NCBI GenBank assembly: GCA_018814445.1
Contig: JAHIZV010000237.1
Span: 49,729 to 113,728, forward strand
DNA length: 64,000 nucleotides
Direction: 5' to 3'
Source: Verrucomicrobiota bacterium
GTDB taxonomy: Bacteria; Verrucomicrobiota; Kiritimatiellia; JAHIZV01
Of this stretch, positions 3,002 through 33,832 are shown piece after piece. The notes below the pieces were generated by a model that was given only the letters and a program-made list of their open reading frames with translations, ran no database searches and was not told the DNA's origin. Within the stretch, counting starts at the first letter, position 1, and every line of letters starts with the position of its first letter. Both the position numbers and the translations under genes were made by a program.

Positions 3002-3252
3002 ATATCCTTCCTTCCGCTATCTTGACACTGTCAGAAACGACCGTAGTCGCCCAGAGATAATGCCCCTCGTTTCGCCGGTCTATTTGCCCTCCTCGGACAT
3101 AAGAAAAGGCTACTCTATTGATGGCGTTCTGTCTTGTCGGGAAAAACCCCACATTTCGTTTATGAGCTCAGTCAGTCTCCGCTCGTGCTGAATCAGTGCA
3201 TCTCTTGCCGGATCTTCTTCTGCCGAGACAAGGCGAACTCCTTACGACTATG

Positions 3253-3280
3253 CCCCCACGCATGGCGCGAAAAGAGGCGG
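3253..3280. terminator. Putative bidirectional intrinsic terminator hairpin between two secreted-protein genes
   Basis: Imperfect stem AGAGGCGG-atacgga-CCGCaTCTCT, flanked by an A-run (gcgaaaag) upstream and a T-run (ctcttttt) downstream. It lies just 3' of the 3300..4523 gene on the minus strand. Confidence 0.3.
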
Positions 3281-3299: not shown

Positions 3300-4523
3300 T
3301 TACGGCGTCCTCGTCGACCAGACGCTGAAAGCGCTCTCCAGCGGTTCCGTGCGGTCCCTGATGTAGACTTCGATGTCATTCACGACCACCTGATCACCGG
3401 GATCCAGACTCCCGTCTCCGAGCGCAGCATTGACTTGCGGCGTGATGTCTACGTACTCGTGACCGTTCGGAAGGTGCCCATCCGGCGTGACATACCGGCG
3501 TTCTGTATTCCAGTCCAACGCACACCAGAACGGCTCCGTGAGTGCAGGACCGCCTGCCCCCGAGTCATTCCGCAGCGTCAAAGTTCCGAAGAACGTACCG
3601 CGCTGACGGTCGAGAGTCCAAGTGAGCTTCGGAGACATAAGCATCGCTGTGACATTCGTGAATACCCCTGAAGCGACTTCGCCTGCCCACCACTCTTCGG
3701 CAGTCACCTGCCACGACGCACCGTTCGCCAGCGATTCACTGCGCCATTGCAGCGCGTACGCCGCGTCATGAATAGACGCATCCACCGTATCGGGAAGCGT
3801 TCCCCACTTACATGCGTTCCGCACGAGTTGAAAGTGGGCTTCATGGTGAGTGTCAGCGAGAGAGCCCCCCACCCCCTTCAACCCCATGAAGACCGGAGGA
3901 TCATTCGTGGTCAGCACGTACACGGTATTGGAACCTGCGCCCCAATGACCTGTCGCGACATCCTCGCCGGATGGAGATACATCACCGCCGTGGACAAAGC
4001 GAAGATTGTTGAAAGAGACGCCGGAACCGTTGGCGATAGTCCACTGCAGGGAGAAAAAAGGGTTCCCGTTCACATAAGAAACCAACTGGGTCACGACCAC
4101 ACCGCGTTGTCCCGCGCGAAGCGCTGTCTCAATCGACCAGGCATCGGGCATCGAATGGGAGACGGGCGTAAACCGGTCCGTACTCTCATCATCCCACAAC
4201 GCAAACGTGCTGGTACCGTTGCCAAATCGTGACGAAGCATTTGTGCCGTCGAGAAACAGAGCGGACCCTGTCGCAAAGGCAGAGTAGAATTGCGGCCGCG
4301 TCTCCGTCCCCTCCTGCCGCGTGACACCGATCGTTCCGTATTCGTCCACGCTGATCCGGAGAGGGTCGCCAGAGATTTGGAGCGTCTGCGTTGTCGCCGC
4401 CAACGGCAGCAGAACAAGAAGAGCTCCCAACATCGTACATCGAACATAACGCACCGAACATCGAAGGACTCCTGCAGTTCGGTGTTCGATGTTCAATGTT
4501 TGATGTTCGATGTTCCCGCTCAT
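3300..4523 (-). CDS. Secreted hypothetical protein (about 377 aa mature)
   Basis: The long ORF has an ATG at 4523 whose stop/start overlap with the upstream β-barrel gene is TGATG (one shared nucleotide). An alternative ATG at 4433 sits immediately before the hydrophobic signal sequence MLGALLVLLPLAATTQTLQ. The segment between the two starts is encoded by the palindromic repeat. No homolog is recognised by eye. Confidence 0.55.
   Translation of the reverse strand: MSGNIEHQTLNIEHRTAGVLRCSVRYVRCTMLGALLVLLPLAATTQTLQISGDPLRISVDEYGTIGVTRQEGTETRPQFYSAFATGSALFLDGTNASSRFGNGTSTFALWDDESTDRFTPVSHSMPDAWSIETALRAGQRGVVVTQLVSYVNGNPFFSLQWTIANGSGVSFNNLRFVHGGDVSPSGEDVATGHWGAGSNTVYVLTTNDPPVFMGLKGVGGSLADTHHEAHFQLVRNACKWGTLPDTVDASIHDAAYALQWRSESLANGASWQVTAEEWWAGEVASGVFTNVTAMLMSPKLTWTLDRQRGTFFGTLTLRNDSGAGGPALTEPFWCALDWNTERRYVTPDGHLPNGHEYVDITPQVNAALGDGSLDPGDQVVVNDIEVYIRDRTEPLESAFSVWSTRTP
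4434..4516. repeat. Imperfect palindromic (AACATCG)n repeat element, copy A of 3
   Basis: The left arm carries catcgaacat...ccgaacatcgaa. The right arm carries ttcggtgttcgatgttcaatgtttgatgttcgatgttc, with a CTGCAG centre. The same element is present at 20064-20158 and 33731-33832. Confidence 0.6.
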
Positions 4524-5788
4524 CAGAATCTCCTCCCGCCCTCAACACTCACCGAGTACCCGCTGATATCAATCGTCAACTCGTTCGGACCGATACTCCC
4601 CTTGAACTCATCGGGCACCCAGTCGTACCCGCCTGTCAGGACGGCGAACCAACTCTCGCCAAGTGCCACTTCCACACCCCCATGAAGTCCGAGACCGAAC
4701 AGCACATCGGATTCACACAGATCGTCCCGCCAACTTCCGAGGGTCGACGTCTGCCCGTTTTCCTCCGCCATCCATATCTCCCTACGATCGGCTTCGACAT
4801 CGACCAGATTCATGGAAACAATCGGGTTCAGGAAGAACGTCAAACCGCCTCCCGTCATCCACGTGAATTGAGGACCAATCCACAGCTCCAGGATCTGTGC
4901 TTCCACGTCAAAAGACACCTGATTGTAGGCCGTGATCCGGGAACTCGATCCGCCGCCGGCCGTGTAGTCCAACACTGCGCCGACCACATCCAACGACTCG
5001 GGGCGATTGGGAATGAGCGGTGATGGCGGAGGCCAGCCATCAAGGCTACCGGCGTACGGAGGCGAAGGAGGAACCACCCCCATCAAGTCATAGGTATATG
5101 TGGAGTCCTGAACGTAAGACACCGAGCCGCCTGTCCTGGTTCTGCTGATCTCTTCTGCGTACGGGGCCGCATTGAGATCAGACTCAATCCCCGGGAACCA
5201 TGTCACGCCCATGCGCAGATCGAAGGAGAAGCCCTCGTCTCGTTTGAGTCCGAGCGTTGCGCTAAGGTCGACGCCCAACGCGTCAAGATCGTCATCCAGA
5301 GAAACCGCGCTGCTCCACAACTCATCAATCGTCGTTCTCTGCTGCGATGCGCTCAACTGGAACATATCGTTGCGATGGAAGGTCAATGTGTCGGCTATGG
5401 GACTGTACTGACCCGCATTGTCATATCCCCAGTACCACGTGTCCCCGTCGTTCGGCGTTCCCGCGTCCATGAACACATACCCGTCATCGAACTGCCTGTC
5501 GGCATACTGCGTGATGTCATCAAGCGTCGGCACGGTGTACTGAAGACCCGAGTTACCGGCCGACGCGGCATGAAGCCCGTTCATCTGTACATACGACGAA
5601 CCCTCAATTTCCAGTCTCATGCCCGCGCGATAGGCGAGGCCCGCGGAGAAGCGCCAAGCGTCCGCCACGCTTCGCGTCGGCGCTAGAACAAACAACAAGA
5701 AACCAACAAGAAACAACGCATAACGGACGGGGAGCCGCGTTCCAGTGCTTGAGCGTTGATCGTTATCAGTTGATAGTTGAGCGTTCAT
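4523..5788 (-). CDS. Putative outer-membrane β-barrel protein
   Basis: ATG at 5786-5788 with a GAGGAAA RBS. Signal peptide MNAQL...LFLVGFLLFVLAPTRSVADA. Alternating amphipathic composition and a C-terminal ...SVEGGRRF ending in an aromatic residue are typical of outer-membrane β-barrels. Its start overlaps the upstream stop as ATGA. Confidence 0.6.
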   Translation of the reverse strand: MNAQLSTDNDQRSSTGTRLPVRYALFLVGFLLFVLAPTRSVADAWRFSAGLAYRAGMRLEIEGSSYVQMNGLHAASAGNSGLQYTVPTLDDITQYADRQFDDGYVFMDAGTPNDGDTWYWGYDNAGQYSPIADTLTFHRNDMFQLSASQQRTTIDELWSSAVSLDDDLDALGVDLSATLGLKRDEGFSFDLRMGVTWFPGIESDLNAAPYAEEISRTRTGGSVSYVQDSTYTYDLMGVVPPSPPYAGSLDGWPPPSPLIPNRPESLDVVGAVLDYTAGGGSSSRITAYNQVSFDVEAQILELWIGPQFTWMTGGGLTFFLNPIVSMNLVDVEADRREIWMAEENGQTSTLGSWRDDLCESDVLFGLGLHGGVEVALGESWFAVLTGGYDWVPDEFKGSIGPNELTIDISGYSVSVEGGRRF

Positions 5789-7395: not shown

Positions 7396-10300
7396 TCAAT
7401 TGACCGTCAGGTCATTCGAGACGACGAGATCGATTCGTCCACCACCGCTTCCACCGGCCCATGAATCGCTTCCGCCTCGCGAACCACCCGAACCGAGGTA
7501 GATGGGATTATGAGGGTCGCCATAGGCAGGATTGGGAGATCCTGCTCCGTAGGAAGCCCCATATCCGCCAAACGAGCCGCCCGACCTCTCCGATGAACCT
7601 ATCTGCCCCGCGAGCGTCAGTCCGTTGTTATTGTCCGTGTTGCCCGGCCTCTCACCACCTCGATAGCCTCGCGCGGTCACATCTATCGAACTCCCGGCGT
7701 CGATCTCAATGTTGTTCGCGTGAACCTGAAGGCCGTTTTCGTTGCTGAGTGTATGCGTCAGGACGCTGTTCGTCTGGAGCCGCAAGGCACCGGCCACGTT
7801 CAAGCCCGCATCTGCGGTCACCCGGGCCTTGTTCCTGAAGATGATGTTGTCGAATTCATAGCCGTCCAGGATAGGACACTTATCGATCGCGGGTTTCACA
7901 TTGTGCCCGTCAACGACCAGATCCCCATAAGTCTGGCTGGAATGCTTCAGGAACAGCGTGCCATTGCCTCCATTCGTCCAATTTCCGCTTCCGGCTCTGG
8001 CTTCAAGGTGACTCTGGTCGATAGCAAGCGTGTTGTAGCGAATGGCTATCCTTCCACCGCCACCACCGACCTCGTTGCCCCCGCCATTCGCGCGAATGAT
8101 GCCGCTTCCCGAAAGACTGTCTGCGTGTATGTCAATCGTTCCGCCCGAACCGCCTCCGGCCCCATCACCATGACCGCCCTGCCCGTTCGCGGAGATGATC
8201 CCATCATTCGCGATCGCACCCGCGGTTATGCGGACCCAACCACCGCCATCGCCACCCCACCAGGAATCACTGCCGCCACGCGAACCGCCCGAACCCAACT
8301 CCTCCGGGTTTGTCATGCTTCCATAGACGGAATTCGGCGCCCCAGCACCCCAATGACCTCCAAGTCCACCGTAGGAACCGCCCGCCCGCTCCGTGGAGCC
8401 GGCGGAGTTGTTCTCTGTCCGTCCCGAATTCACGCCGACGTTCTGATGGTGTTCGCCACCGAGATAGCCGACCGCATCGGCGTTGATATACCCGTTGCTG
8501 CTCAGTTCCAGCGTGCCTACCGTCAGATCCAGCCGTGATTCAAAGGTCGTCGTCGCTTTGAAATGCGTCAGTTTCCCGTGCTCATCGATTCTTACCGTAT
8601 CGCCAACAACGACCTTGTCTCCGCATCTGAGGGAACCGCCTCGCCGGAAGAAAATATTGTCAAAGCGATGTATCGCAGCATAACCGTCACCGGGCGCTGC
8701 CACGTCCGTGAGATTCGTGCCACCGCTCACATCGACCGTTATGGATGTCGCCGAGTTGCCGATAATGTCGAAGGTTGTCTGCTGCGTCAGGTCAGGATTG
8801 ATCTCCAGTCCGACGAGACCGCCGGGAAGGACGCGAACCGTCTGGTCCAGCAAGAGCATATTCGAGGACAACGCCTGCACCGTTCCGAAACCGACGTGCG
8901 TCAACCATGTGTAGTTTGTGGATGTCGAGACCTTGTTGTCGTCCACATACAGGTCACCGTAGCTTTGACTATGCCGCCTCATGACGACCGTTCCCGCCCC
9001 GCCCGGCGCACTCCACGTCCCGGATCCCCCGAACGCGCCGATATTGCGCAAGTCATTCAGATCGTCACTTTTCCCGCCGAGATAGTCATAGTCGATCAGA
9101 ATCCGACCGCCGCCACCGCCGATTTCGTTCCCGCCGCCATTCGCGCTGATACTACCGCTTCCTCGCAGAAGCGAGGTGTCGATCTTGATAGACCCGCCCG
9201 AGCCACCACCGGCGCCATCACCTGCACCAACCTGCCCGTCTGCCCTGATAACCCCTTCAACAACAACGGCTTCGGACGCTTCTATCGTGACCCTTCCGCC
9301 GCCGTTTCCGCCCGCCCAAGAGTCACTGCCTCCTCTCGATCCGCCGGAACCGAGGTACGCCGGGTTAAGATCCGAACCGTAAACAGGATTCGGAACCCCC
9401 GCGGAGGCGCCTCCGTATCCGCCGTACGATCCGCCTGCACTTTGAGAGGACCCCATCTGTTCCGCCAGCGTGAACCCGCTATTGTTAGGATTTCCATCGC
9501 GCTCGCCGCCGCGATAGCCCTTGGCACCCACATCGATCGAGCTGGAGGAGTCTATCTCCAGACGCTTGCACGTAATGCGTACGCCGTCGGTCAGCATCAG
9601 CGAATGCGTCATGATGCTACCGGTCAGAATCTCGATCTTGTTGCTGACTACGAGTTCATCATCGGCGACGACACGCGCCGTGTTCCTGATGATGATATTG
9701 TCGAAGACATGGCCCGGCGGGATCGGCAAAGCCGAGAAACTGGAACCCGCGCCCTGTCCATCAACGACGAGTGTTCCACCACCTTCATCGACCCCCTTGA
9801 GAAACACCGTGCCGTTTCCGCCATCGACCCAGTTGCCCTGACCGCCCAGGGCATGGAGCAGCGTCGTATCCCAAGTGTCGATGTCCACGTAGTGGACCGC
9901 AATCCGTCCACCCCCGCCCGCAACCTCGTTGCCGCCACCATCCGCGGTCAAATCGCCTCTTCCGCTCGCGGTCGTGACAATCAGGTAGACTGACCCGCCG
10001 GAACCGCCGCCGGCGCCATAGCCGTGCCCCGCCTGTCCGTCCGAAGTGATCAGGCCGTCGTTCACAATATTGATGGCCTGGATGAGAATCTTCCCGCCGC
10101 CGTCACCGCCCCACCAGGAATCACTCCCCCCGCGTGAACCACCCGACCCCAATTCGGAAGGCGCCGTTAAATCACCGTATAACGCGCACGGCGTCCCGCC
10201 CCATGCTCCACCTGTGCCTCCGTATGATCCTCCCGAACGCTGTGTAGAACCTGCGACGTTCCCTGACGTCCTCCCCTCATTCATGCCCGTGTTCGGAGCA

Positions 10301-13300
10301 TGTTCTCCGCCCAGATAGCCCAACTCGTCGACGTTGACGGCACTGTTCGAGTCAACGGTGACGGTCCATGCATCGATATCCACCCCGTATTCCGCCGTTG
10401 TTGTCGTGTCCGGATGCGTCACCACCGCGCCATTCAAGAGTTCAACATTGTGGAACATGTGATGACCGTTGATCGTTACGGTCACACCGTCTATACGCAG
10501 ATTCACATTGTCGTAGGCCGTATTTCCGAGCGAAATATTCGTGGGAGAGGATATGGTGATCCAGACCGTCCCGGCGCTGAACGCGCGCACTTCATCCGCC
10601 GTGACTACGCCGGTTGCATTGGTCGGCGGAAGTCCGCGGTTGCCGTATTGGTCGACACCTATCGAGTAGAATTCGTATGTTCCGTCCCCACCCATCTTCG
10701 CCGAATCGAAGATCAGGCTCCCCACGGCGACGCCGCCTGGATCGTAATGACCCAGTGAGTTCCCACCGTCAGCATCTGTGTAGCGGTTAAACGTCCCGTA
10801 GCCATCTCGCCGGAAGTAGATTTCAACGTGATCCAGATCGTCGAGGCCATCGGTGACCTCGTACGTCACCGTGGCAGTCGTACCTACCCCGGGATCGGCT
10901 ACGGCAGTCACCTCCGTCGCCGGAGGCGTGATATCAGCATCTGACAACACGATCGGCACATTGATCGCCGTCCCTTTATTATTTTCGTCGTCCCACGCCT
11001 CCGCATGCAGCGTAACGTCAGGATACGGCGCGCCGAAGGGAACGGATATGCTGAATACCTCATTTGTGCCACCGACCGATGCCCCGTAGATACGCGTCTC
11101 GTCAGAACTGAGTGCGCCTGTCGCGTAACACCGCACTATCTTGACACCGACTGCATCCGAAGCCACTACGACGACGGTCACCGTTTCTCCATAGCCATAC
11201 GCCGTTTCCGGAATCGGCGATGAGATGAATACTTGCGGCGATGTCCCGTCGCCAAGCTGAAGCACGATGCTGTCGACCGTCGAGGTGTGTGCGCTCGTAT
11301 CGACAGCCCATGTCCTGACAGTGATGACGCCGCTGATGGGTGCGTTACTTGAAACCGTGAAGTTGAAGACCTGCGTCGTATCCTTCTTCGATGGAGATAT
11401 CTGGCGTTGATCCGTGAATGTCGTCGCACCGGATACCGCGAGATAGATGCGGGTCACGCCATTCGTCGGATCCTGCGCCCGCACAGAAACCGGAACCAAC
11501 TCGTTGCGCTCGACGCCGGAACCGCTGGGCGGACTGAGAATATCAACGGTCGGAGGCGGATCCATTCCCGTATCAACGCTCACGTTAACAAACGCGGACG
11601 GCAGCCCTGAGCGATACACGGATATCTGCGTCAGCCCGTCGGATACCGCCGTAATCAGGCCCGAAAGTGAAACCGTCGCAATGGCGGGATTGCCGCTGAC
11701 AAATGTGTTTCCAGAATTCAGCGGCCCGCTTGTGCCGTTGTTGTACTGCCCGGTGACAGCAAGTTGTCTCGTGTTGCCCACGCCCGCCAACAACACCGAT
11801 TTCGGCGCTGCCGTGATGTTGGTGAGCTTGACAATATCCGCGAAGATCTCGGCCGTTGCCGCATTCGACCCCACAGCCGCCGATATCGTTGCGGCACCTC
11901 GTTTCAGAGCGACAACACGACCCGCACTGCTCACCGATGCCACAGATGGAACACTCGAAGAGAAGGTCGCTTTCCCGGTAACGTTGGATGCCGAACCTCC
12001 CTGGTAAAACCCAGTCACGACGAGATCCACAAATGCCCCCGCAGAGGGCAGAACGGCATTCGACGGGTAGGCTCTGATCGACATAATCACTGGTTTCGGC
12101 GGCACGACCGCAACGGTCGGAGGGCTCGGATCCGGACTCTGGGTGAAGTCATAGGCCACCAAACTGAGAACATTCCCGACGTTCGCGTTGATCGTCGCGG
12201 TGAAAGCGCCGGAACTATTTGCATATACACTGACGGCGACGTTCTGGTTCGTGTTCCGAATGTTAATCCGAGCGTTGGCCACGCTGGTACCGGTGACTTT
12301 CGAGGCGAGGCCTTCCGGCGGCGACACACCCGTGACCATCGGCGCAGCAGGAGGCACACCGGGGGGCGGCTCGATGATCGTGAACTCCAGATAGGAATCC
12401 GGATCGAATCTGTCGTTCGCAACACCGAGGTTGTTAGTCGCCAGCACAATGACCCTGTGCGTTCCGAGCGCGAGATTGGTGGTGTTGATCAGGATGGGAG
12501 AGGCGTTGGTACTGACCAGGTTCGTGGCACTCGCGATAAATACGTGGATGGAACGGACTCCGACATCATCCTCGACACTCGGATCAATCGAGAAGATGTC
12601 ACCCATTACGTACACCGCACCGTCCGACTCGTTGAAACTGATGACAGGCATGTTCAGATTCTCAACCAACTCGAAGTCGTAGTCATCGAATCCTGTCTGC
12701 CCCAAACCGTCTTCGGCCACCGCGCGGACGACATGCGTGGTGAGGCTCATGGTCAGCGTCGACAGCGTCGCCTGCCACGGAGGAAGCGTGACCGTTTTGT
12801 AAGGAACAAGCGCACCATCCAGAAAATATCTGACACGGCGCACACCGCCGGTCAGCGCTACCGGCTTCAACCTCACGGATATGCCCTGCAACTGAGGCGC
12901 GACAGGATCACCTGGAAGAACGATGGTAGGCGGATCGGCGGTCGGAGCCATGACAATCGAGATGGTCGCATTCTGACCGTTGAAGAGCCCGTCATAGGCC
13001 GTGGCCATGAGCTGGTATGTCCGTCCGGTCGTCAGATTCGATGAATCGAGTGCGAAGATGAACGGCGGCTCGTTGCCATGGAACACGCTCTTCTGATCCA
13101 CCAGTTTGTACAGGTTTGTAGGATTGGACATGTCCTTGATGCGCAGTTCCACACGGGCAACACCGCTTCCCTGATCGGATGCGTAGGCATTAACGCGGAC
13201 GATCTCACCGGGAAGGACGTAGTTAGGGTTCACAGGCGGCTCGATGGAAAGAGTCAGCAGAGGAGGATCCACATCACCCAGTCCCGTCGTGGTTGTCTTG

Positions 13301-15054
13301 AATACGCTGAGCCACTCATTATACAGGTGATTGCCGTCGCGGTCTCTTATCGCCTGGCTGACCCAGACCGTGTACTTCTCGCCGGGACGCCAGCGATTGA
13401 GCACACCGTCATCGACCTGCCAGATCGCCATGGAGCGGGAGCTCAGGTTCGTCTCGATCCTGATCTTCCCTTTCACCAGCCTGCCGGTGTCGTCGTAGAC
13501 GTTGAACGTACCGTTGGATCCCGTCGTTATGGTGTCGTGATTCATCAACTCGCTGAAGAACGCGACCACGGGCGACTCCGTCGAAATCCCCTGGGCGTTG
13601 TGCGCGGGCGCAACGGAGACAGCGGGAATACCCGCCGGAACGTCTGTCATCGGAGGATTGTGTCCGACCGCGCACCCGAGAGTCCCGACGACGACCTGGA
13701 GGCTGACATTCTGATCGGAGATGCCCATGCAGGATGAAATAGCCCCGCTTTCCGACGGGAGAACGGTGAAGGTCTCACTGATCGTCTCGCCCGGATCCAG
13801 ATGACCGAGCGCTCGCGTGACGGGCTCCTGCACGTATTCGCAGTCCGGCTCTCCCGTTGCCGCGTCCAGTTCACAATTCACAAGCTGCGCATCGGCGCTC
13901 ACATCGAGTTCAAGGCTGGCGTACATGGCGGGCAGTTCGCCGGTATTGAGTATTCTCACGGTCAGGTCATATGGCTCGCCGGCGATGACGAAGTCAGGAT
14001 GAAGCACGGTCACCTGGAAGTCCGGCGGCCCTTTCACTTCCACATCCGTTGTCGCGCTGCCATTAAAGGGGACGGCATCATCCCCCGCGATGCCCGGACC
14101 GACCACACTGCCCCCGAAGTTCACTGTGACGTCATGAATACCGATCTCATCGCCGCGAATGATGAACTCACGTTCCAGTTGACCCGGCTCGTCGGGGGTC
14201 CCCGGCAGAATGTCGCCGAAGGACACGATGCCATCGGCCGGTAGAGTGTGGCTCAAACCGCCGGCAGGAAACCCGATCTCGGCGACCACGTTGGAAAGCG
14301 TGAAAATACCCGATGTATTCATCAGCATCAGTCGAACAGAGAAGAACTCCTTCAGGCTCTTGATGCGGCCTTCAATAATGATCACGCCCGGTATGGGAGG
14401 AACTTCGATCGTTCCCGACGGTGAGACTTCCTGCGCGAAGAAGATGATCTCAGGCGGCAGTCTGGGTGCGTGTTTTTGCCCGGCAGGGTCGTCGGGCGGT
14501 GGCATCCTGTATGTCTCCGAACCTCCGCTGTTCCCGCCTGATCCTTTTGGAAACACAATGGGAAGGGAGATGGGGACCTCCTCTTTATCGATCGTCAGGA
14601 CGATCGTGAATGTCGACACGTTGAAGTTCTCCGGATCTTCAAGATCGATCACCCCGTCCGCAACCAACTGCTCAACTTCTTCCGTCGACAGCCGCTCCGA
14701 AGTGAGGCGCGAGACGACGATCTGATCGAGAGACAACTGCGTTACAGCGAGTTCAGCCGCTTCTGTGTTCCCGTACGAATCTGTCGCCGTCACCTGGATG
14801 TTGTTCACCGCGTTGCGGTTCAGAGGCAAATTGACCTCAAACGATCCACCCTCATCGGGAAGAACAGCGCTACCGGCGCCGCCCGGGGCGGTGACGTTGA
14901 CGGTGATTGCGGCGTCGGTCGGCATGGAGAGGCTTACGATGAGAAGAGAAAGCAGGAGAGCTGAGATGCGAATGGGAGAAAGGGAGAATGGGAGAGAGGG
15001 AGAGAATCTGCGTCTCCCATTCCTCCACTCTTCCTTTCTCCCACTCACCCTCAT
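7396..15054 (-). CDS. Giant secreted Gly-rich β-helix/β-roll repeat protein with Big_2-like Ig domains (2552 aa before the in-frame TGA)
   Basis: Long ORF with N-terminal hydrophobic segment ISALLLSLLIVSLSMPTDAA. It has at least five copies of an approximately 250-aa unit (GYLGGEH...GGSRGGSDSWxGGDGGG...GDGAGGGSGG...ANGGGNEVGGGGGRI...YGDLxVDxxNV). Big_2-like segments are also present (for example AGRVVALKRGAATISAAVGS). Its ATG overlaps the upstream stop as ATGA at 15051-15054. Confidence 0.7.
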   Translation of the reverse strand: MRVSGRKEEWRNGRRRFSPSLPFSLSPIRISALLLSLLIVSLSMPTDAAITVNVTAPGGAGSAVLPDEGGSFEVNLPLNRNAVNNIQVTATDSYGNTEAAELAVTQLSLDQIVVSRLTSERLSTEEVEQLVADGVIDLEDPENFNVSTFTIVLTIDKEEVPISLPIVFPKGSGGNSGGSETYRMPPPDDPAGQKHAPRLPPEIIFFAQEVSPSGTIEVPPIPGVIIIEGRIKSLKEFFSVRLMLMNTSGIFTLSNVVAEIGFPAGGLSHTLPADGIVSFGDILPGTPDEPGQLEREFIIRGDEIGIHDVTVNFGGSVVGPGIAGDDAVPFNGSATTDVEVKGPPDFQVTVLHPDFVIAGEPYDLTVRILNTGELPAMYASLELDVSADAQLVNCELDAATGEPDCEYVQEPVTRALGHLDPGETISETFTVLPSESGAISSCMGISDQNVSLQVVVGTLGCAVGHNPPMTDVPAGIPAVSVAPAHNAQGISTESPVVAFFSELMNHDTITTGSNGTFNVYDDTGRLVKGKIRIETNLSSRSMAIWQVDDGVLNRWRPGEKYTVWVSQAIRDRDGNHLYNEWLSVFKTTTTGLGDVDPPLLTLSIEPPVNPNYVLPGEIVRVNAYASDQGSGVARVELRIKDMSNPTNLYKLVDQKSVFHGNEPPFIFALDSSNLTTGRTYQLMATAYDGLFNGQNATISIVMAPTADPPTIVLPGDPVAPQLQGISVRLKPVALTGGVRRVRYFLDGALVPYKTVTLPPWQATLSTLTMSLTTHVVRAVAEDGLGQTGFDDYDFELVENLNMPVISFNESDGAVYVMGDIFSIDPSVEDDVGVRSIHVFIASATNLVSTNASPILINTTNLALGTHRVIVLATNNLGVANDRFDPDSYLEFTIIEPPPGVPPAAPMVTGVSPPEGLASKVTGTSVANARINIRNTNQNVAVSVYANSSGAFTATINANVGNVLSLVAYDFTQSPDPSPPTVAVVPPKPVIMSIRAYPSNAVLPSAGAFVDLVVTGFYQGGSASNVTGKATFSSSVPSVASVSSAGRVVALKRGAATISAAVGSNAATAEIFADIVKLTNITAAPKSVLLAGVGNTRQLAVTGQYNNGTSGPLNSGNTFVSGNPAIATVSLSGLITAVSDGLTQISVYRSGLPSAFVNVSVDTGMDPPPTVDILSPPSGSGVERNELVPVSVRAQDPTNGVTRIYLAVSGATTFTDQRQISPSKKDTTQVFNFTVSSNAPISGVITVRTWAVDTSAHTSTVDSIVLQLGDGTSPQVFISSPIPETAYGYGETVTVVVVASDAVGVKIVRCYATGALSSDETRIYGASVGGTNEVFSISVPFGAPYPDVTLHAEAWDDENNKGTAINVPIVLSDADITPPATEVTAVADPGVGTTATVTYEVTDGLDDLDHVEIYFRRDGYGTFNRYTDADGGNSLGHYDPGGVAVGSLIFDSAKMGGDGTYEFYSIGVDQYGNRGLPPTNATGVVTADEVRAFSAGTVWITISSPTNISLGNTAYDNVNLRIDGVTVTINGHHMFHNVELLNGAVVTHPDTTTTAEYGVDIDAWTVTVDSNSAVNVDELGYLGGEHAPNTGMNEGRTSGNVAGSTQRSGGSYGGTGGAWGGTPCALYGDLTAPSELGSGGSRGGSDSWWGGDGGGKILIQAINIVNDGLITSDGQAGHGYGAGGGSGGSVYLIVTTASGRGDLTADGGGNEVAGGGGRIAVHYVDIDTWDTTLLHALGGQGNWVDGGNGTVFLKGVDEGGGTLVVDGQGAGSSFSALPIPPGHVFDNIIIRNTARVVADDELVVSNKIEILTGSIMTHSLMLTDGVRITCKRLEIDSSSSIDVGAKGYRGGERDGNPNNSGFTLAEQMGSSQSAGGSYGGYGGASAGVPNPVYGSDLNPAYLGSGGSRGGSDSWAGGNGGGRVTIEASEAVVVEGVIRADGQVGAGDGAGGGSGGSIKIDTSLLRGSGSISANGGGNEIGGGGGRILIDYDYLGGKSDDLNDLRNIGAFGGSGTWSAPGGAGTVVMRRHSQSYGDLYVDDNKVSTSTNYTWLTHVGFGTVQALSSNMLLLDQTVRVLPGGLVGLEINPDLTQQTTFDIIGNSATSITVDVSGGTNLTDVAAPGDGYAAIHRFDNIFFRRGGSLRCGDKVVVGDTVRIDEHGKLTHFKATTTFESRLDLTVGTLELSSNGYINADAVGYLGGEHHQNVGVNSGRTENNSAGSTERAGGSYGGLGGHWGAGAPNSVYGSMTNPEELGSGGSRGGSDSWWGGDGGGWVRITAGAIANDGIISANGQGGHGDGAGGGSGGTIDIHADSLSGSGIIRANGGGNEVGGGGGRIAIRYNTLAIDQSHLEARAGSGNWTNGGNGTLFLKHSSQTYGDLVVDGHNVKPAIDKCPILDGYEFDNIIFRNKARVTADAGLNVAGALRLQTNSVLTHTLSNENGLQVHANNIEIDAGSSIDVTARGYRGGERPGNTDNNNGLTLAGQIGSSERSGGSFGGYGASYGAGSPNPAYGDPHNPIYLGSGGSRGGSDSWAGGSGGGRIDLVVSNDLTVN

Positions 15055-18000: not shown

Positions 18001-20165
18001 TTGAATGCCGCTATGGCGGCCGCGTTGTTCGGGTCACTCGGATTCGCCCACGCATCGTTCAGAATCTGCTGTAGTGCTGCAATCCATTCCGTGAAGGAGG
18101 GCGTACTCCCACTCTTCCACTTGATGCCGAAGCTCAGGTCGTAGAGCAGATCGATCAACCGCACATCTTCGCCGCGCGCGTGTCGGCGCGCATACAGTTC
18201 GACACCCTTGTGGCTGATGCTGAACAGGTTGTTTGTGTCCAATGAAGGATTCAACTCGTTGCCGAATTCATCCCATACCCCGACTTCTTCCGCGCCGAGG
18301 GTCAGAAACGTATCTCTGACCAACTCAATCGCGTCCTGCAGGTCTATCCTCCCCGACAAATCACCAAGTCCACGGCCAAGAATACTGAAAAGGCTGGCAG
18401 AAGCGGCAGACGACGGATCATAGACCGTCGGCTCAGTGGCCAGTTCGCCCACGTCCACCGGCACCCCCTGCTCGACCCCGATCGGCAGGCGGATGAGCTT
18501 GTGGTTCGTCGGATTGAGCAGAAGAATCCGGGTCCCTATCGGGACGTTAAGAAGTGTGAAGCTGCCGTCGAGAAGAGACAACGTACTGATGACCGTTCCC
18601 TCAATCGATATCAGCGCCCCGACGATCGGGCTTCCCGTCTCTGAGTCAACCAGTCTTCCACTTACCGTCGTCAGACCTTCCTTTACATGGAATGCAGGGA
18701 CCGCGACGGCTGTCTCGCTCCCAGTCTTCAACTTTACGCCCCGCGCCCCCGTCGCGGCGGACGCCGCCACGGAGATATTCGCGATCGCTTGAGTCCCATT
18801 GTTTACGGTCAGCGAGTTGACTGTGATGCCGTCACCGAACGACGCGCTGCTGCCCCCCGCCGCAAAATGTGTGACGTAGGCGCCCGTTCCCTTGCCACTG
18901 ATGAGTACGCTGACGTTGGTATCGCCCTGGCGCGCGTCTGAAGGAAAAAGCCCCGTGATCAGAGAGGCGATGATCTTCTGCGCCGGAGGAAGGTTTGTCC
19001 CCGCGTTTACGCGGCCCGTCACTCGCTGTTCCGTGAGCAGCGTCGGACTCTCGGAATCGTCCACCACCAGAACGAGTTGATTGCTTTCGGCGGTCGCCTC
19101 GATATTGCTGACGGTGACGCTGACGATCGTGTCCGTGCTGTAGAGTGATCCGTCATACGAGCGGCACGTGATGTTGTAGGTGCCGTCCTGCGAGTAGTCG
19201 GGCGCAAAGGTGATACCTCCCCCCGCCTGAACGAAAATCGCATTATCCGGCAGTGGAGAACATTCGATGCTGATTGGGTCTCCGTCGGGATCCGAGCCCG
19301 TGACCGGGATCATGACATTTTGTCCTTCATTCACCGACACCGACGCTGGCGCGGAAATGGTAGGCGGATTGTTGGTCGGTGTGACAAGAATCTGCACGAC
19401 CCTGCTCGTCGACAGGCCTGATTCATCCCACGCAGTGAACGTAACGGCGTAGACACCTTGCTGCCCCGGACTGGTTGCAAGCACGTAATCGCCTGTCGCG
19501 TTGAGACTGCTTGCAGATGTGAAGGCGGCATTAGGAAGGATAGGAGAAGCCCCGATGGAGACGACCTCCCCATCCGCATCATAACCGTAGAGTCTAAGGG
19601 CAAGCGTCTCACCCTCCATCACCACGTATGGCGGAACCTGTACAATATTCAATGTGGGCGGATGCTGCTGAAGAAGTCCACCCCGCGGACCGGGGTTATA
19701 CATGAAGCGGTCATATTTGGGCCGCTCAAATTGAAGGGCCTGACCAACGAAATGTCCTGACGCGAATTGCCCCGCCGTGAACTTCGCATCCAGATTGAAA
19801 TAGTACTTACTATACGGACCCGAGCCCTGCCCTCCGGACGCGCCCGGCATAACCACGCGATCGACGCGTCCGGAAACCAGGTCAACGGTCAGATCAATCG
19901 GCGGCATGGCTGCGGAACCGGAGTGATTCGCGGCAACGGAGGCGACCGTGGAAACCAGCGTCCCGTTCGCGCGATCCAACGCCGTGCGCGTTCTTCCCGA
20001 CATAACCTCAATCTGCGCGCTGATATCAGGAGCCTGTGCGGCGGCGTTGCGGCCCCCTAATCCCAACATCGAACATAGAACAACCAACATCGAACATCGA
20101 ATGATAAGGTGTCTTCTGTGTTGAATGTTCGGAGTTCGATGTTCGATGTTCGATGTTCTTATCAC
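15051..20165 (-). CDS. Large secreted multidomain protein (Ig/cadherin-like repeats, carboxypeptidase-regulatory-like β-sandwiches, NHL/β-propeller-like region), 1704 aa
   Basis: Long ORF. A GTG at 20163-20165 overlaps the stop of the upstream small gene as GTGA. An alternative ATG at 20090 immediately precedes the signal sequence MLVVLCSMLGLGGRNAAAQA. Motifs: PPTISAPASVSVNEGQNVMIPVTGSDPDGDPISI, GRLVDSETGSPIVGALISIEG and DGDLYAVNG...KIFKF. Confidence 0.65.
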   Translation of the reverse strand: MIRTSNIEHRTPNIQHRRHLIIRCSMLVVLCSMLGLGGRNAAAQAPDISAQIEVMSGRTRTALDRANGTLVSTVASVAANHSGSAAMPPIDLTVDLVSGRVDRVVMPGASGGQGSGPYSKYYFNLDAKFTAGQFASGHFVGQALQFERPKYDRFMYNPGPRGGLLQQHPPTLNIVQVPPYVVMEGETLALRLYGYDADGEVVSIGASPILPNAAFTSASSLNATGDYVLATSPGQQGVYAVTFTAWDESGLSTSRVVQILVTPTNNPPTISAPASVSVNEGQNVMIPVTGSDPDGDPISIECSPLPDNAIFVQAGGGITFAPDYSQDGTYNITCRSYDGSLYSTDTIVSVTVSNIEATAESNQLVLVVDDSESPTLLTEQRVTGRVNAGTNLPPAQKIIASLITGLFPSDARQGDTNVSVLISGKGTGAYVTHFAAGGSSASFGDGITVNSLTVNNGTQAIANISVAASAATGARGVKLKTGSETAVAVPAFHVKEGLTTVSGRLVDSETGSPIVGALISIEGTVISTLSLLDGSFTLLNVPIGTRILLLNPTNHKLIRLPIGVEQGVPVDVGELATEPTVYDPSSAASASLFSILGRGLGDLSGRIDLQDAIELVRDTFLTLGAEEVGVWDEFGNELNPSLDTNNLFSISHKGVELYARRHARGEDVRLIDLLYDLSFGIKWKSGSTPSFTEWIAALQQILNDAWANPSDPNNAAAIAAFNTGRNLSPNPPVLNGATRLTKLQAFIMVSGFMSAAYHHRDDWVWAPTPPEDAFVMSLGESLSKAVHDFVCGPDAVAQVPGGKAGTYTITWERLAQEMGDYPTEAVFNSTNAVNRELPGFEDILSKYYMDGTTNSLAAARLQLENAFPGNPTIANIFNKDKYGVVAAVTSLVRITATDIHLRTNFIAIAGRDYSSGSIWAPFKVSWGHGTLSPMMFLALGTDPTVTSAVLIKSLAPAAPYLHSVKEVRRNIGSAYNPLYIPFVEILFYPSPDERVKKEETYAYRLWQWQPKGTTVSERAAMKIVAAGQETTDRSDFFSPHRDTNDTAKLVFRVPFPEPGHQYYRIDCIRGSENVVKKALDNTNTLAKVKPWLSGYLDDPLAASQDQVLKLGTRNIHPGKAFIEGERLDVSALSRVGSVFVRGAGTGFAPFGHIDLVADYDKPDRIYISIPDFKFNNDRGSGAIFLYRPEKSEMVEAVSHNSLFMQPGQVGMTMDSDGDLYAVNGASQMAYGGKIFKFYMDAVTGLATGRSHVANVNYFSQTLLRGRPTSIQDIAMGSKGTDAYDEELYLADNYDTTVKKIDVSWSEQYLGSNYANLAVAYHNVAKGLWGENESWSTWPDIFAFDAWTDLEFDLTKEWLYITQGNNIVRTKGDTAQGLFINGTVFDNATSCAFCESRYATYLFIADMAANRILRVPVSDLPLLVPSDPAQYSELMTAYTFIENVPHPMDVAIADDGKALIYVTDAGVQYTRFGFTGRALTEDDQPLVGAVVKLITAGGEEKTLADGNGYYTFGGYTAASVGILDVSHPLTNFTEDIVIDWRCGSTLRPAPCVVITSPADGEIVSNGTVTVRGTIFPADTDFTLTGGTLDASGGSYPLVFTGNDNDFIVNNVPLNTGDNYLTGRAAANGPYISGVSLSTRVRRQTAPATSQAVSGVAKDGDGNPIPGATVIVKVNGFEVTELTADGCGYYHEDGLPLGVLSVEVVE
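20064..20158. repeat. Imperfect palindromic (AACATCG)n repeat element, copy B
   Basis: Left arm caacatcgaacatagaacaaccaacatcgaacatcgaatg, loop ataaggtgtcttctgtg, right arm ttgaatgttcggagttcgatgttcgatgttcgatgttc. It lies in the junction between the small secreted-protein gene and the 1704-aa gene. Confidence 0.6.
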
Positions 20166-20728
20166 GGCGTCCCCCCCGCCGTAACGGCCACGTTGTCCAC
20201 CCGCACCGCGCTATCCCCGGCGACGAAGTTCAGGTCGTAGAGCTCGAAGATAACGATGACGTACGTGTGACTGTTGTTGAACGTACCGGAGAAATGCGAC
20301 CAGCCCGCGCCTTTCGGCGAATCGCCGATCGTTCCATTGATGTTGAAGTTTCCGTTTGCGTCGCAGTCGAAAAGGCCCTGCGACGCGTCGAACTTGTCGT
20401 TCTCGGTGATAAAATCGGAAAGCGTGTCGACGTAATAGACAGACGCATAGAAGGAATCATTGAAAGCGCCATCGGGGACCTCCACCGAAAGTGCGCTGCG
20501 GAAGTCGAATTCAATCGTGAACTGCCCCGCACCGACCTCATCCGCCTGAAACACAAACGCATGAACATCCTGCGTGTCCGCGAGCACGGCCTCGCCACCA
20601 GCTGACGTCACATGCCAGGCGGTCTTCCAATGGATAAGCGCAGAAGTGAAATCGCCGTTCAGAATCGCGGACGCACTGGTTGCGCCAACGAACAGCGCCA
20701 AAGCCCAAGCCAGTCCTAACCTCCTCAC
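20162..20728 (-). CDS. Small secreted β-sandwich protein (NGDF-type carbohydrate-binding/galactose-binding-like N-terminal motif), first gene of the giant-protein cluster
   Basis: GTG start at 20726-20728, 5 nt after a strong AAGGAGG RBS. Signal peptide VRRLGLAWALALFVGATSASA followed by ILNGDFTS. The upstream part of the longer tracked ORF (from 20815) lacks an RBS. Confidence 0.5.
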   Translation of the reverse strand: MRRLGLAWALALFVGATSASAILNGDFTSALIHWKTAWHVTSAGGEAVLADTQDVHAFVFQADEVGAGQFTIEFDFRSALSVEVPDGAFNDSFYASVYYVDTLSDFITENDKFDASQGLFDCDANGNFNINGTIGDSPKGAGWSHFSGTFNNSHTYVIVIFELYDLNFVAGDSAVRVDNVAVTAGGTP

Positions 20729-20838: not shown

Positions 20839-20878
20839 TGTCACATTCAGGTGTGCGATCGCACACCTGAATGTGACA
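20839..20878. promoter_or_regulatory. 40-bp perfect palindrome in divergent intergenic region; candidate dimeric-regulator operator
   Basis: The sequence is TGTCACATTCAGGTGTGCGA immediately followed by its exact reverse complement TCGCACACCTGAATGTGACA. It lies between the cluster promoter (minus strand) and the trmFO start (plus strand). Confidence 0.5.
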
Positions 20879-33730: not shown

Positions 33731-33832
33731 GGAACATCGAACGCCGAACATGAAACATCGAACTTCAAATCGAAGTCATTGATGTCCATACTTCGATGTT
33801 CGTTGTTCGAAGTTTGATATGTTCGTTGTTTC
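33731..33832. repeat. Imperfect palindromic (AACATCG)n repeat element, copy C
   Basis: Left arm ggaacatcgaacgccgaacatgaaacatcgaacttcaaatcgaagt. Right arm acttcgatgttcgttgttcgaagtttgatatgttcgttgtttc. It ends at the maf start codon. Confidence 0.55.

What the first reader, a model, noticed from the sequence alone, without database searches (positions are those of the whole stretch)
20064..20165. Palindromic repeat lies inside the longest in-frame N-terminal extensions of two secreted proteins that start by stop/start overlap
For the 1704-aa gene the GTG at 20165 overlaps the upstream stop (GTGA). For the 377-aa gene the ATG at 4523 overlaps the β-barrel gene stop (TGATG). In both, the repeat is then read in frame and stop-free, giving similar extensions: SNIEHRTPNIQHRRHLIIRCSMLVVLCSML versus SGNIEHQTLNIEHRTAGVLRCSVRYVRCTML. 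These sit in front of the hydrophobic signal sequence. Neither internal ATG (4433, 20090) has a Shine-Dalgarno sequence, whereas most other genes in the window do. Either these are extended, basic signal-peptide N-regions encoded by a repeat, or the hairpin is an untranslated intercistronic structure and the downstream genes use SD-less internal starts. In the maf copy the element is not coding: there is an in-frame TGA 18 nt upstream.
Basis: partly seen in the sequence, partly recalled or inferred. Interest (0 to 1): 0.5.

Follow-up and report, generated by a model that had tools for sequence, protein, structure and literature searches.

The report
Hairpin repeats translated into signal peptides
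Three consecutive secreted-protein genes of one Verrucomicrobia operon carry a stop-free hairpin repeat just after their start codon, most likely translated as a disposable extension of the signal peptide; this kind of event has precedents, but the repeat family does not appear in the literature I could search.

Summary
Degenerate (GAACATC)n/(GATGTTC)n hairpins lie at 4429-4515, 20064-20158 and 33732-33830. The stop/start overlaps, peptides and maf TGA are as described.

The heptamer is stop-free in all six frames. Because 7 and 3 are coprime, every frame encodes the same peptide.

- Both overlapping starts have very strong Shine-Dalgarno (SD) sites (-10.3 and -10.1 kcal/mol, top 1% of the window). 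The internal ATGs have none and are paired in -43 to -47 kcal/mol stems.
- Orthologues of the 407-aa gene start at the same stop/start overlap, so the repeat landed inside the signal-peptide coding sequence.
- For the 1704-aa protein the repeat arm itself encodes the hydrophobic core.
- A third, unrelated palindrome (14970-15046) precedes the signal peptide of the next gene (2552 aa). No canonical start lies between them, so it must be translated.

The hairpins belong to cross-phylum short-tandem-repeat families. Single arms occur in frame in Lpd, UvrB and SMC genes elsewhere, and some long forms carry a 23S_rRNA_IVP gene.

The case resembles the Rickettsia RPE and Yersinia YPAL precedents. 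Translation is inferred, not shown.

The parts
20064..20158 (-). Heptamer hairpin copy 2. Its 5' arm is (GAACATC)n, with 3.5 perfect units at 20140-20158, and its 3' arm is a degenerate (GATGTTC)n. It lies in codons 3-34 of the 1704-aa ORF.
   Evidence: MFE -46.6 kcal/mol, z -4.5. All 3 sense frames are stop-free.
20163..20165 (-). GTG start of the 1704-aa ORF, overlapping the upstream TGA (20162-20164). This is the favoured start.
   Evidence: SD duplex -10.1 kcal/mol; only 0.9% of all ATG/GTG/TTG in the window reach -10.
20171..20177 (-). SD-like G run (GGGGGGG), 5 nt upstream of GTG 20165 and inside the end of the 217-aa gene.
20052..20096 (-). Hydrophobic core CSMLVVLCSMLGLGG of the 1704-aa signal peptide, followed by RNAAAQA|PD. 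Most of it is encoded by the 3' arm of the hairpin.
   Evidence: Relative to the family consensus arm, D->V and R->L changes fall here, in the interrupted (mismatch/bulge) part of the stem (read by eye).
20088..20090 (-). Internal in-frame ATG (rival start). It lies in a GATGTTG unit and is base-paired in the stem.
   Evidence: SD +0.1 kcal/mol; fold. This start is chosen by the gene caller of the Logan contig L124.
4429..4515 (-). Heptamer hairpin copy 1 (87 nt = 29 codons), in codons 4-32 of the 407-aa ORF.
   Evidence: MFE -43.4 kcal/mol, z -4.4. 2 of 3 sense frames are open.
4521..4523 (-). ATG start of the 407-aa ORF, overlapping the upstream TGA (TGATG). This is the ancestral and favoured start.
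   Evidence: SD -10.3 kcal/mol. Orthologues start at the same junction: TAATG in L120 and L122, TAGccATG in L121. The NCBI annotation uses it (P0001).
4530..4537 (-). SD GGGAGGAG, 6 nt upstream of ATG 4523.
   Evidence: Orthologue L122 has GGAAGGAG at the same place.
4395..4433 (-). Native hydrophobic core MLGALLVLLPLAA of the 407-aa protein, followed by TTQ|TLQ. It aligns with the orthologues' signal peptides. ATG 4433 is the rival start.
   Evidence: SD +0.1 kcal/mol.
4452..4454 (-). In-frame GTG in the 3' arm, an intermediate rival start. It would give MRYVRCT-MLGALL..., a canonical 23-aa signal peptide.
   Evidence: SD -6.9 kcal/mol, from an AGGAG in the hairpin loop at a long 14-nt spacing. 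It is paired in the inner stem.
33732..33830 (+). Heptamer hairpin copy 3. It is non-coding and fills the spacer between the 194-aa gene (stop 33721) and maf (ATG 33833).
   Evidence: MFE -39.4 kcal/mol. All 3 sense frames have a stop. The maf ATG has no SD (+0.6 kcal/mol); Maf Pfam 2.9e-48.
14970..15046 (-). An unrelated palindrome built of GGGAGAAN octamers, in codons 3-29 of the 2552-aa ORF.
   Evidence: MFE -58.1 kcal/mol, z -6.7. All 6 frames are open. Its 22-mer has 103 exact hits in metagenomes.
15052..15054 (-). ATG start of the 2552-aa ORF, overlapping the stop of the 1704-aa gene (ATGA).
   Evidence: SD -6.5 kcal/mol. With GTG 15048 it is the only canonical in-frame start upstream of the h-region.
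14929..14967 (-). Hydrophobic core ISALLLSLLIVSL of the 2552-aa protein, followed by SMPTDA|AITVNVTAPGG. It sits at the position of the signal peptides of more than 15 homologues.

Best explanation
The palindromes are copies of dispersed, stop-codon-free hairpin repeats built from short tandem units. Two families are involved: GAACATC heptamers and GGGAGAAN octamers.

They sit in a tightly packed, translationally coupled operon (20815 to 3300, minus strand). Each starts 4-10 nt after an upstream stop codon. Because stop and start overlap there, that position is codon 3-4 of the next gene, which is the n-region of its signal peptide.

Translation still starts at the overlapping start codon, whose SD lies in the end of the upstream gene. 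The ribosome reads through the hairpin. The product carries a 23-30-residue, net-positive extension of the signal peptide. In the 1704-aa protein the repeat also supplies the hydrophobic core. Signal peptidase removes the whole segment, so the mature protein is unchanged and the insertion is tolerated.

A likely side effect is enforced coupling. The -43 to -58 kcal/mol stem begins at about +9 from the start codon. This should block free 30S binding and make downstream translation depend on ribosomes arriving from the upstream cistron.

Shown: the anatomy, the frames, the SD strengths, the orthologue start positions, the lack of an alternative canonical start in the 2552-aa gene, and membership of widespread repeat families.

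Inferred: that translation really starts there, that the peptide is cleaved, and that coupling is enforced.
For: 1. SD duplex energies are -10.3 kcal/mol (ATG 4523) and -10.1 (GTG 20165). Only 0.9% of all ATG/GTG/TTG in the window reach -10. The internal ATGs 4433 and 20090 score +0.1.

2. Orthologues of the 407-aa protein start at the same junction: TAATG in L120 and L122, TAG-cc-ATG in L121. L122 has an SD at the same spot. None has a spacer, so the repeat lies downstream of the ancestral start.

3. In the 2552-aa gene, more than 15 homologues have a signal peptide directly before the conserved [AD]I.V.V.GPGG. The window's ISALLLSLLIVSLSMPTDA|A occupies that place. The only in-frame ATG/GTG/TTG upstream of it are 15054 and 15048, both 5' of the palindrome.

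4. All three palindromes keep the frame between an overlapping start and the h-region. Without selection the chance is about (1/3)^3.

5. Read by eye (no predictor was run), the short variants lose the basic n-region that the orthologues have:
- MLGALL... has net charge 0, against +2 for the long form.
- MLVVL... has net charge 0, against +4 for the long form.
- The start at 14925 gives no signal peptide at all.

6. The internal ATGs are paired inside the stems.

7. Four of five operon junctions are stop/start overlaps. No hairpin looks like a terminator, and no internal promoter-like site was found on the operon strand.

8. n-regions of 20-30 residues occur naturally in this protein family and in the neighbouring 421-aa protein.

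9. Arms of the same heptamer family are in frame inside conserved genes in other genomes: an Lpd-like enzyme in L012 and L033, where Pyr_redox_2 spans the arm, UvrB in L096 and SMC in L026. A DUF1501 Tat signal in L019 needs a start in the hairpin loop and translates the 3' arm.
Against: There are no expression, proteomic or start-mapping data, and SignalP could not be run.

A stem starting at about +9 should hinder initiation at the overlapping start as well, unless coupling opens it.

Gene callers disagree. PGAP called the 2552-aa ORF from ATG 14925 (2509 aa). The Logan contig's caller chose ATG 20090 for the 1704-aa gene.

The 1704-aa N-terminus has no orthologues, so its ancestral start is unknown.

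The maf copy shows the element can be purely non-coding.

The in-frame intragenic cases elsewhere are single arms of 41-49 nt, not full hairpins.

A near-cognate ATT at 14973-14971 would give a neat MRISALLL... signal peptide for the 2552-aa gene. It cannot be formally excluded.
Confidence: 0.6

Rival explanations
1. The hairpin is an untranslated intercistronic RNA element, like a REP/ERIC/Correia element or an rRNA intervening-sequence stem. It might act as an RNase III site or an mRNA stabiliser for the upstream cistron. The downstream genes would then start at codons supplied by the 3' arm (GTG 4454 or ATG 4433; ATG 20090).
For: The stems are very stable. All four palindromes begin 4-10 nt after an upstream stop, the classic position of REP-type elements. 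The GATGTTC arm offers an ATG every 7 nt, so in all frames. The maf copy is non-coding. In L080 the ATG of the last heptamer is the likeliest start, giving MFAPRPQRPLLYLLAIGAAL.... GTG 4454 would give a canonical MRYVRCT-MLGALL... signal peptide, with an AGGAG in the loop. The Logan contig's gene caller picks ATG 20090. Long forms of the family carry a 23S_rRNA_IVP gene between the arms, which recalls RNase III-excised intervening sequences.
Against: ATG 4433 and ATG 20090 have no SD and are buried in the stem. The short forms lack any basic n-region, unlike all orthologues. The 2552-aa gene has no canonical start after its palindrome. The overlapping starts keep top-1% SD sites and the correct frame. 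Orthologues have no intercistronic spacer at the 407-aa junction.
Confidence: 0.25
2. The element is a phase-variation switch. Slippage of the 7-nt unit, which is not a multiple of 3, in the 5' coding region would shift the frame. This would turn large surface proteins on or off, as the CTCTT repeats do in the signal-peptide region of Neisseria opa genes.
For: The period is 7, the position is between the start codon and the h-region of secreted Ig-domain proteins, and there are 3.5 perfect units at 20140-20158.
Against: There are only 2-3.5 perfect units and the arrays are degenerate. The octamer palindrome and the maf copy do not fit this reading. No length polymorphism was seen, but the only comparison is with contigs from what appears to be the same population, so the test is weak.
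Confidence: 0.05
3. The insertions are damaging or neutral junk on the way to gene decay. Secretion or translation of the downstream genes would be impaired, and nothing would be selected.
For: The copies are degenerate, with 78-85% arm complementarity. No close relatives exist to show persistence; the closest orthologue is 59% identical.
Against: The ORFs of 407, 1704 and 2552 codons are intact and in frame behind the palindromes. In copy 2, two charged codons of the consensus arm are replaced by hydrophobic ones exactly where an h-region is needed. Three insertions in one operon all keep the frame.
Confidence: 0.07

Closest known systems
Rickettsia palindromic elements (RPE; Ogata et al. 2000, as reviewed in PMC2229807)
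   Same: These are dispersed palindromic repeats with open reading frames. They are found both between genes and fused in frame into protein-coding genes, and they are translated there without destroying function.
   Different: The sequence was not compared here, but the architecture differs: this element is a hairpin of 7-8 nt tandem units. The host range also differs (Verrucomicrobia, Planctomycetes, Lentisphaerae, Desulfobacterota). Here the full hairpins sit in the cleavable signal peptide, not in the mature protein.
Yersinia YPAL/RU-2 and ERIC MITE fusions (Delihas 2007, reviewed in PMC2229807)
   Same: A MITE reading frame fused at the N-terminus forms part of a predicted signal peptide (locus YPO1552). 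The transcripts form long stem-loops that affect neighbouring mRNA.
   Different: The YPAL case creates a new small exported ORF. Here three large, conserved secreted proteins with pre-existing signal peptides received the insert. No TA ends or target-site duplication were seen.
E. coli REP/BIME intercistronic hairpins (own knowledge: malE-malF stabiliser; Liang, Rudd and Deutscher 2015 on REPs within 15 nt of a stop codon)
   Same: These are imperfect palindromes placed a few nucleotides after a stop codon inside operons. They can stabilise upstream mRNA or stall terminating ribosomes.
   Different: REPs are extragenic. Here stop and start overlap, so the same position is coding for the next gene. 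No RAYT transposase was looked for.
Intergenic heptamer direct repeats: TAACTGA in Beggiatoaceae, Cyanobacteria and Bacteroidetes (PMC4679880), and cyanobacterial STRR
   Same: These are 7-nt tandem units scattered across distant phyla, lying directly upstream of start codons where the RBS should be, with no known mechanism of spread.
   Different: Those are direct arrays. Here arrays of a different heptamer form inverted pairs (hairpins), and in two cases they lie downstream of the start codon.
CTCTT repeats in the signal-peptide coding region of Neisseria opa genes (own knowledge)
   Same: A short tandem repeat whose unit is not a multiple of 3 lies between the start codon and the hydrophobic core of a surface protein.
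   Different: The opa arrays are long, perfect and polymorphic, and they are not palindromic. No polymorphism is shown here.
23S rRNA intervening sequences with an IVP (four-helix-bundle) gene, Pfam PF05635
   Same: In Desulfobacterota and Chlamydiota MAG loci, the same heptamer arms flank a 23S_rRNA_IVP gene or its remnants. The architecture of a long stem plus a small ORF is that of an IVS.
   Different: None of the loci examined lies in an rRNA gene. The window copies have short loops with no gene remnant. RNase III cleavage is not tested.

Membership tests
In-frame palindromic repeat insertion (RPE-like) | Dispersed multi-copy palindromic element | tested here: met
   There are 3 copies in 64 kb. 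More than 119 stretches in genome contigs contain the 18-mer, and 55 hairpin pairs were found.
In-frame palindromic repeat insertion (RPE-like) | Open reading frame through the element, in frame with a host gene | tested here: met
   Copies 1 and 2 and the octamer palindrome are open and in frame from an SD-equipped start. Single arms lie in frame in Lpd, UvrB and SMC genes elsewhere.
In-frame palindromic repeat insertion (RPE-like) | Demonstrated translation of the insert | not testable with these tools
   This needs proteomics or ribosome profiling.
In-frame palindromic repeat insertion (RPE-like) | Sequence homology to Rickettsia RPE consensus | not tested
   No RPE sequence was compared. 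The architecture (7-nt tandem units) and the hosts differ.
MITE | Terminal inverted repeats, small size (50-500 bp), many copies | tested here: met
   Arms are 29-37 nt and 78-85% complementary; elements are 87-99 nt.
MITE | Target-site duplication | tested here: inconclusive
   No direct repeat was seen by eye at the ends of the three copies. The ends are fuzzy.
MITE | Related autonomous element with a transposase | tested here: not met
   The long forms carry only a 23S_rRNA_IVP four-helix-bundle gene. No transposase was seen between the arms.
Sec-type signal peptide with extended n-region | Net-positive n-region, 10-15-residue hydrophobic core, small residues at -3 and -1 | tested here: met
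   Read by eye, with no predictor. The n-region charges are +2, +4 and +6. The cores are MLGALLVLLPLAA, CSMLVVLCSMLGLGG and ISALLLSLLIVSL. The c-regions are TTQ|T, AQA|P and TDA|A. The cores align with orthologue signal peptides.
ESPR (extended signal peptide region of autotransporters/TPS; I recall it as Pfam PF13018) | Match to the ESPR profile | tested here: not met
   The Pfam scan of the 407-aa and 1704-aa proteins at E <= 0.01 and of the 2552-aa protein at E <= 0.001 returned no ESPR family.
Translationally coupled genes | Stop/start overlap with the SD inside the upstream gene | tested here: met
   The overlaps are GTGA, ATGA, GTGATG and TGATG. SD energies are -10.1, -6.5, -7.4 and -10.3 kcal/mol.
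REP/BIME-type intercistronic hairpin | Extragenic position | tested here: not met
   At the 407-aa junction the orthologues have no spacer, and the element lies after the conserved start. The maf copy is extragenic.
Intrinsic terminator | GC-rich stem followed by a T tract | tested here: not met
   None of the hairpins is reported by the terminator scan, and no T tract follows them.
Phase-variable simple sequence repeat | Repeat-number polymorphism | tested here: inconclusive
   Only same-sample contigs were available, and they are identical. There are 2-3.5 perfect units.
Known RNA family (Rfam 15) | Match at the gathering score | tested here: not met
   There were no matches in the window. 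Only chance-level miRNA hairpin hits appear at E >= 0.02.

The most novel reading that the evidence does not exclude
The hairpins may belong to an undescribed, cross-phylum class of selfish short-tandem-repeat elements. The units are stop-free in all six frames, and one arm carries an ATG in every frame. Such an element could land at gene junctions or inside genes and be translated harmlessly, even donating start codons, basic n-regions or hydrophobic cores to signal peptides.

The forms that carry a 23S_rRNA_IVP four-helix-bundle gene between the same arms would be the autonomous, IVS-like parents.

A 31-mer with at most 1 mismatch is shared between Desulfobacterota and Verrucomicrobia, which would imply horizontal spread or a conserved binding partner.
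Probability: 0.2. Interest if true: 0.7.

Novelty: new member of a known kind. Interest (0 to 1): 0.45.

Why it matters
If the reading is right, three neighbouring genes show that the cleavable signal peptide is a safe landing site for palindromic repeats in operons that have no intergenic space. They also show that a repeat can supply a working hydrophobic core.

There is a practical consequence for annotation. Start calls at such repeats are unreliable. The public record of the 2552-aa gene starts after its signal peptide (2509 aa), and two gene callers disagree on the 1704-aa gene.

The wider lead is the repeat families themselves, which my searches of the paper library did not find described. 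They occur in many phyla, sometimes in frame in essential genes, and sometimes carry a 23S_rRNA_IVP gene.

Tried and rejected
- **Exact look-ups.** Look-ups of the 377-aa and 407-aa variants in the look-up of encoding contigs found nothing, although the 407-aa protein is in the protein database.
- **Orthologues of the 1704-aa N-terminus.** The homologue search returned only generic Ig-domain hits, so orthologues cannot settle that start.
- **Rfam.** There were no matches at the gathering score. At the E-value threshold only chance miRNA-hairpin hits appeared. No rRNA was found near the IVP-carrying elements.
- **Literature.** Full-text searches for the repeat sequence and for IVP-gene mobility found nothing relevant.
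- **Position statistics.** I made histograms of distances from the elements to neighbouring stops and starts in 120 plus 103 loci. I set them aside because the ORF heuristic is crude and a T before GAACATC creates a TGA at the element edge, which inflates the 'stop at the edge' class.
- **Stop-free reading and peptide similarity.** Both were rejected as evidence (and the heptamer arithmetic).
- **Intrinsic terminator and internal promoter readings.** The consensus scan gives them no support.
- **Assembly artefact.** Rejected, because independent contigs are identical across the hairpins.
- **Covariation analysis of the hairpin.** Not attempted, because periodic arms cannot be aligned in a unique register.


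Full report
**1. The observation**

The window comes from a Verrucomicrobia MAG. The 407-aa protein is identical to NCBI 'KJ626_15750' on a 137-kb contig.

Three copies of a hairpin lie at 4429-4515, 20064-20158 and 33732-33830. Each has a 5' arm of degenerate GAACATC units and a 3' arm of GATGTTC units. The motif occurs 12 times against 0.42 expected by chance. As RNA the copies fold at -43.4, -46.6 and -39.4 kcal/mol, with z-scores from -3.2 to -4.5. Two independently assembled Logan contigs from SRR2540949 are identical over both operon copies.

- the GTGA and TGATG overlaps;
- the two peptide strings;
- the TGA 18 nt before the maf ATG;
- the absence of an SD before ATG 4433 and ATG 20090.

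**2. What is not evidence**

None of the 14 trinucleotides in GAACATC or its complement is a stop codon, so a perfect array is open in all six frames. In the degenerate copies 5 of 6 sense frames are still open.

Because 7 is coprime to 3, every frame of the array encodes the same cyclic heptapeptide. This is EHRTSNI on one arm and DVRCSMF on the other. The resemblance of the two 'extensions' is therefore automatic.

The GATGTTC arm also carries an ATG every 7 nt, so in all three frames. The 'internal ATGs' are part of the repeat.

**3. What bears on the start codons**

I scored the pairing of the 17 nt upstream of every candidate start with the anti-SD sequence. ATG 4523 scores -10.3 kcal/mol (GGGAGGAG with a 6-nt spacer). 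GTG 20165 scores -10.1 kcal/mol (a G7 run with a 5-nt spacer). Only 0.9% of all ATG/GTG/TTG triplets in the window reach -10. ATG 4433 and ATG 20090 score +0.1. Both internal ATGs are base-paired in the stems.

The 407-aa protein has ten orthologues of 41-59% identity, all with ordinary signal peptides and none with the repeat. In the three orthologous loci that I read, the gene starts at the junction with the upstream gene. The junction is TAATG in L120 and L122 and TAG-cc-ATG in L121, and L122 has GGAAGGAG at the same distance. ATG 4523 is therefore the ancestral start. The 87-nt element (29 codons) lies inside the former n-region coding sequence, not in a spacer.

Started at 4433, the protein would begin MLGALLVLL... 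with no basic residue. Every full-length orthologue start has K or R there. An intermediate GTG at 4454 would give MRYVRCT-MLGALL..., but it has only a distant loop AGGAG (-6.9 kcal/mol) and is paired in the inner stem.

The N-terminus of the 1704-aa protein has no orthologues in the database. Its hydrophobic core, CSMLVVLCSMLGLGG followed by RNAAAQA|PD, is largely encoded by the 3' arm itself. In other genomes the consensus arm reads ...CSMLDVRCSMF in this frame. Here GAC has become GTT and CGA has become CTA, which removes both charges. These changes fall in the interrupted (mismatch/bulge) part of the predicted stem (read by eye). This is a small hint of selection on the peptide rather than on the stem.

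**4.

The next gene (2552 aa) starts at ATG 15054, overlapping the stop of the 1704-aa gene (ATGA). Codons 3-29 are a different palindrome made of GGGAGAAN octamers at 14970-15046. It folds at -58.1 kcal/mol with z = -6.7.

More than 15 homologues of 52-64% identity carry a signal peptide directly before the conserved mature start [AD]I.V.V.GPGG. The window's ISALLLSLLIVSLSMPTDA|AITVNVTAPGG aligns there. Between the palindrome and this core there is no in-frame ATG, GTG or TTG. A functional signal peptide therefore requires translation through the palindrome. The only escape is a near-cognate ATT at 14973-14971.

The public annotation instead starts at ATG 14925 (2509 aa), after the signal peptide. 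That call is very probably wrong.

All three palindromes thus keep the frame between an overlapping start and the hydrophobic core, which has a chance of about 1 in 27 without selection. Four of the five junctions in the operon are stop/start overlaps. No hairpin resembles an intrinsic terminator, and no promoter-like site lies on the operon strand. Long n-regions of 20-30 residues are common in the 2552-aa family and occur in the neighbouring 421-aa protein.

**5. What the repeats are**

The 18-mer GAACATCGAACATCGAAC has more than 119 exact occurrences in one-genome-per-species contigs. Most are in Verrucomicrobiota, Planctomycetota, Lentisphaerae and Desulfobacterota. About 17 would be expected by chance for that database size, by my own estimate.

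About half of the loci show arm pairs, with loops from 0 to about 490 nt. A specific 31-mer, GAACATCGAACATCGAACGTCCAACATCGAA, occurs with at most 1 mismatch in both Desulfobacterota and Verrucomicrobia.

In L004, L008 and L060 the arms enclose a 121-aa four-helix-bundle gene (Pfam 23S_rRNA_IVP, 8e-14). L003, L117 and L042 keep remnants of it. None of these loci is in an rRNA gene.

Single arms of 41-49 nt lie in frame in several conserved genes:
- an Lpd-like enzyme in two Lentisphaerae (L012 and L033), where Pyr_redox_2 spans the arm;
- UvrB (L096) and SMC (L026);
- a TPR-repeat protein, PMT-like by my own reading of its sequence (L067).

In L019 a DUF1501 Tat signal (RRDLLRLSAAG) follows the hairpin with no intervening start, so the 3' arm must be translated. 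In L080 the ATG of the last heptamer is the likely start.

The octamer palindrome also belongs to a dispersed family. Its 22-mer has 103 exact hits in metagenomes, often beside other 7-8-nt tandem blocks. L129 is a nested hairpin with octamer arms outside and heptamer arms inside.

I found no paper that names these sequences. The nearest descriptions are the TAACTGA heptamer arrays upstream of start codons (PMC4679880) and the review of MITE reading-frame fusions (PMC2229807). That review covers the Rickettsia RPEs and a Yersinia YPAL element that forms part of a signal peptide.

**6. Most likely mechanism (confidence about 0.6)**

The elements sit 4-10 nt after a stop codon. In this operon that position is codon 3-4 of the next gene. 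Ribosomes start at the overlapping, SD-equipped start, read through the hairpin and make a long, net-positive n-region (+2, +4 and +6). Signal peptidase removes it. The stem at about +9 probably makes initiation depend on ribosomes arriving from the upstream cistron.

My confidence differs by gene: about 0.85 for the 2552-aa gene, 0.7 for the 407-aa gene and 0.55 for the 1704-aa gene.

The rivals are:
- an untranslated, possibly RNase III-processed, intercistronic hairpin with starts inside the repeat (0.25);
- phase variation by heptamer slippage (0.05);
- decay (0.07).

**7. Verdict**

This is a new member of a known kind: palindromic repeats fused in frame, here into signal peptides. The repeat families themselves are a more novel lead. 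Nothing about translation is shown directly.

Noticed in passing
window 14970-15046 (minus strand): A second, unrelated palindrome made of GGGAGAAN octamers lies in codons 3-29 of the 2552-aa ORF. It is single-copy in the window, but its 22-mer has 103 exact hits in metagenome contigs (L126 onward, 103 loci), as arrays and hairpins.
   Followed up: partly
window 7396-15054 (minus strand): The public annotation (MBU0679558.1, 2509 aa) starts this gene at ATG 14925. That is after the hydrophobic core which aligns with the signal peptides of all homologues, so it is probably a mis-called start.
   Followed up: yes
L004 421-989; L008 7395-7863; L060 3427-3959; remnants in L003, L117, L042: The same heptamer arms enclose a roughly 120-aa 23S_rRNA_IVP (four-helix-bundle) gene. 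In L004 the 5' arm plus ATGGTGAATGA is duplicated on both sides of the gene, and outer GGTTCAG arrays flank the whole element. None of these loci is inside an rRNA gene.
   Followed up: partly
L012 5864-5906; L033 2218-2266; L096 2456-2498; L026 2835-2875; L067 4949-4995: Single heptamer arms of 41-49 nt lie in frame inside conserved genes. These are an Lpd-like oxidoreductase in two Lentisphaerae, UvrB, SMC and a TPR-repeat protein (PMT-like by my own reading).
   Followed up: partly
L019 1552-1672; L080 619-724: In a Planctomycete DUF1501 gene the twin-arginine motif follows the hairpin with no start between them, so the start must lie in the hairpin loop. In L080 the ATG of the last GATGTTC unit gives a canonical signal peptide.
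   Followed up: partly
L129 about 3080-3270: A nested mosaic hairpin has GGGAGA octamer arms on the outside and CAACGTC/GACGTTG heptamer arms on the inside. Many loci carry further 7-8-nt tandem blocks next to the elements, such as GGTTCAG, GACTGCAA and AACCAGC.
   Followed up: no
L009, L030, L066, L079 versus Desulfobacterota loci such as L003, L007, L011: The 31-mer GAACATCGAACATCGAACGTCCAACATCGAA, which includes two specific variant heptamers, occurs with at most 1 mismatch in both Verrucomicrobia and Desulfobacterota.
   Followed up: partly
window 20839-20878: A perfect 40-nt palindrome, TGTCACATTCAGGTGTGCGATCGCACACCTGAATGTGACA, lies in the divergent region between the operon's first gene (ATG 20815, minus strand) and the gene starting at 20913 (plus strand). 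It may be an operator.
   Followed up: no
L122 10001-10050: The n-region of this orthologue (MKGNGHKKARRITKKE) is encoded by a short tandem repeat, GGCACGAAGAA/TCACGAAGAAGG. Repeat-derived basic n-regions may therefore recur in this gene family.
   Followed up: no
window 33732-33833: The maf ATG follows the hairpin by 2 nt, has no SD (+0.6 kcal/mol), and is paired at the base of the predicted stem.
   Followed up: partly
L060 2740-2785: An Acido-Lenti-1 RNA (RF01687, 38.2 bits against a gathering score of 37) lies about 650 nt upstream of an IVP-carrying heptamer element.
   Followed up: no
window 45566-63292 (minus strand): A 5908-codon ORF, with other very large Ig-domain proteins nearby, makes the window rich in giant secreted proteins.
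   Followed up: no
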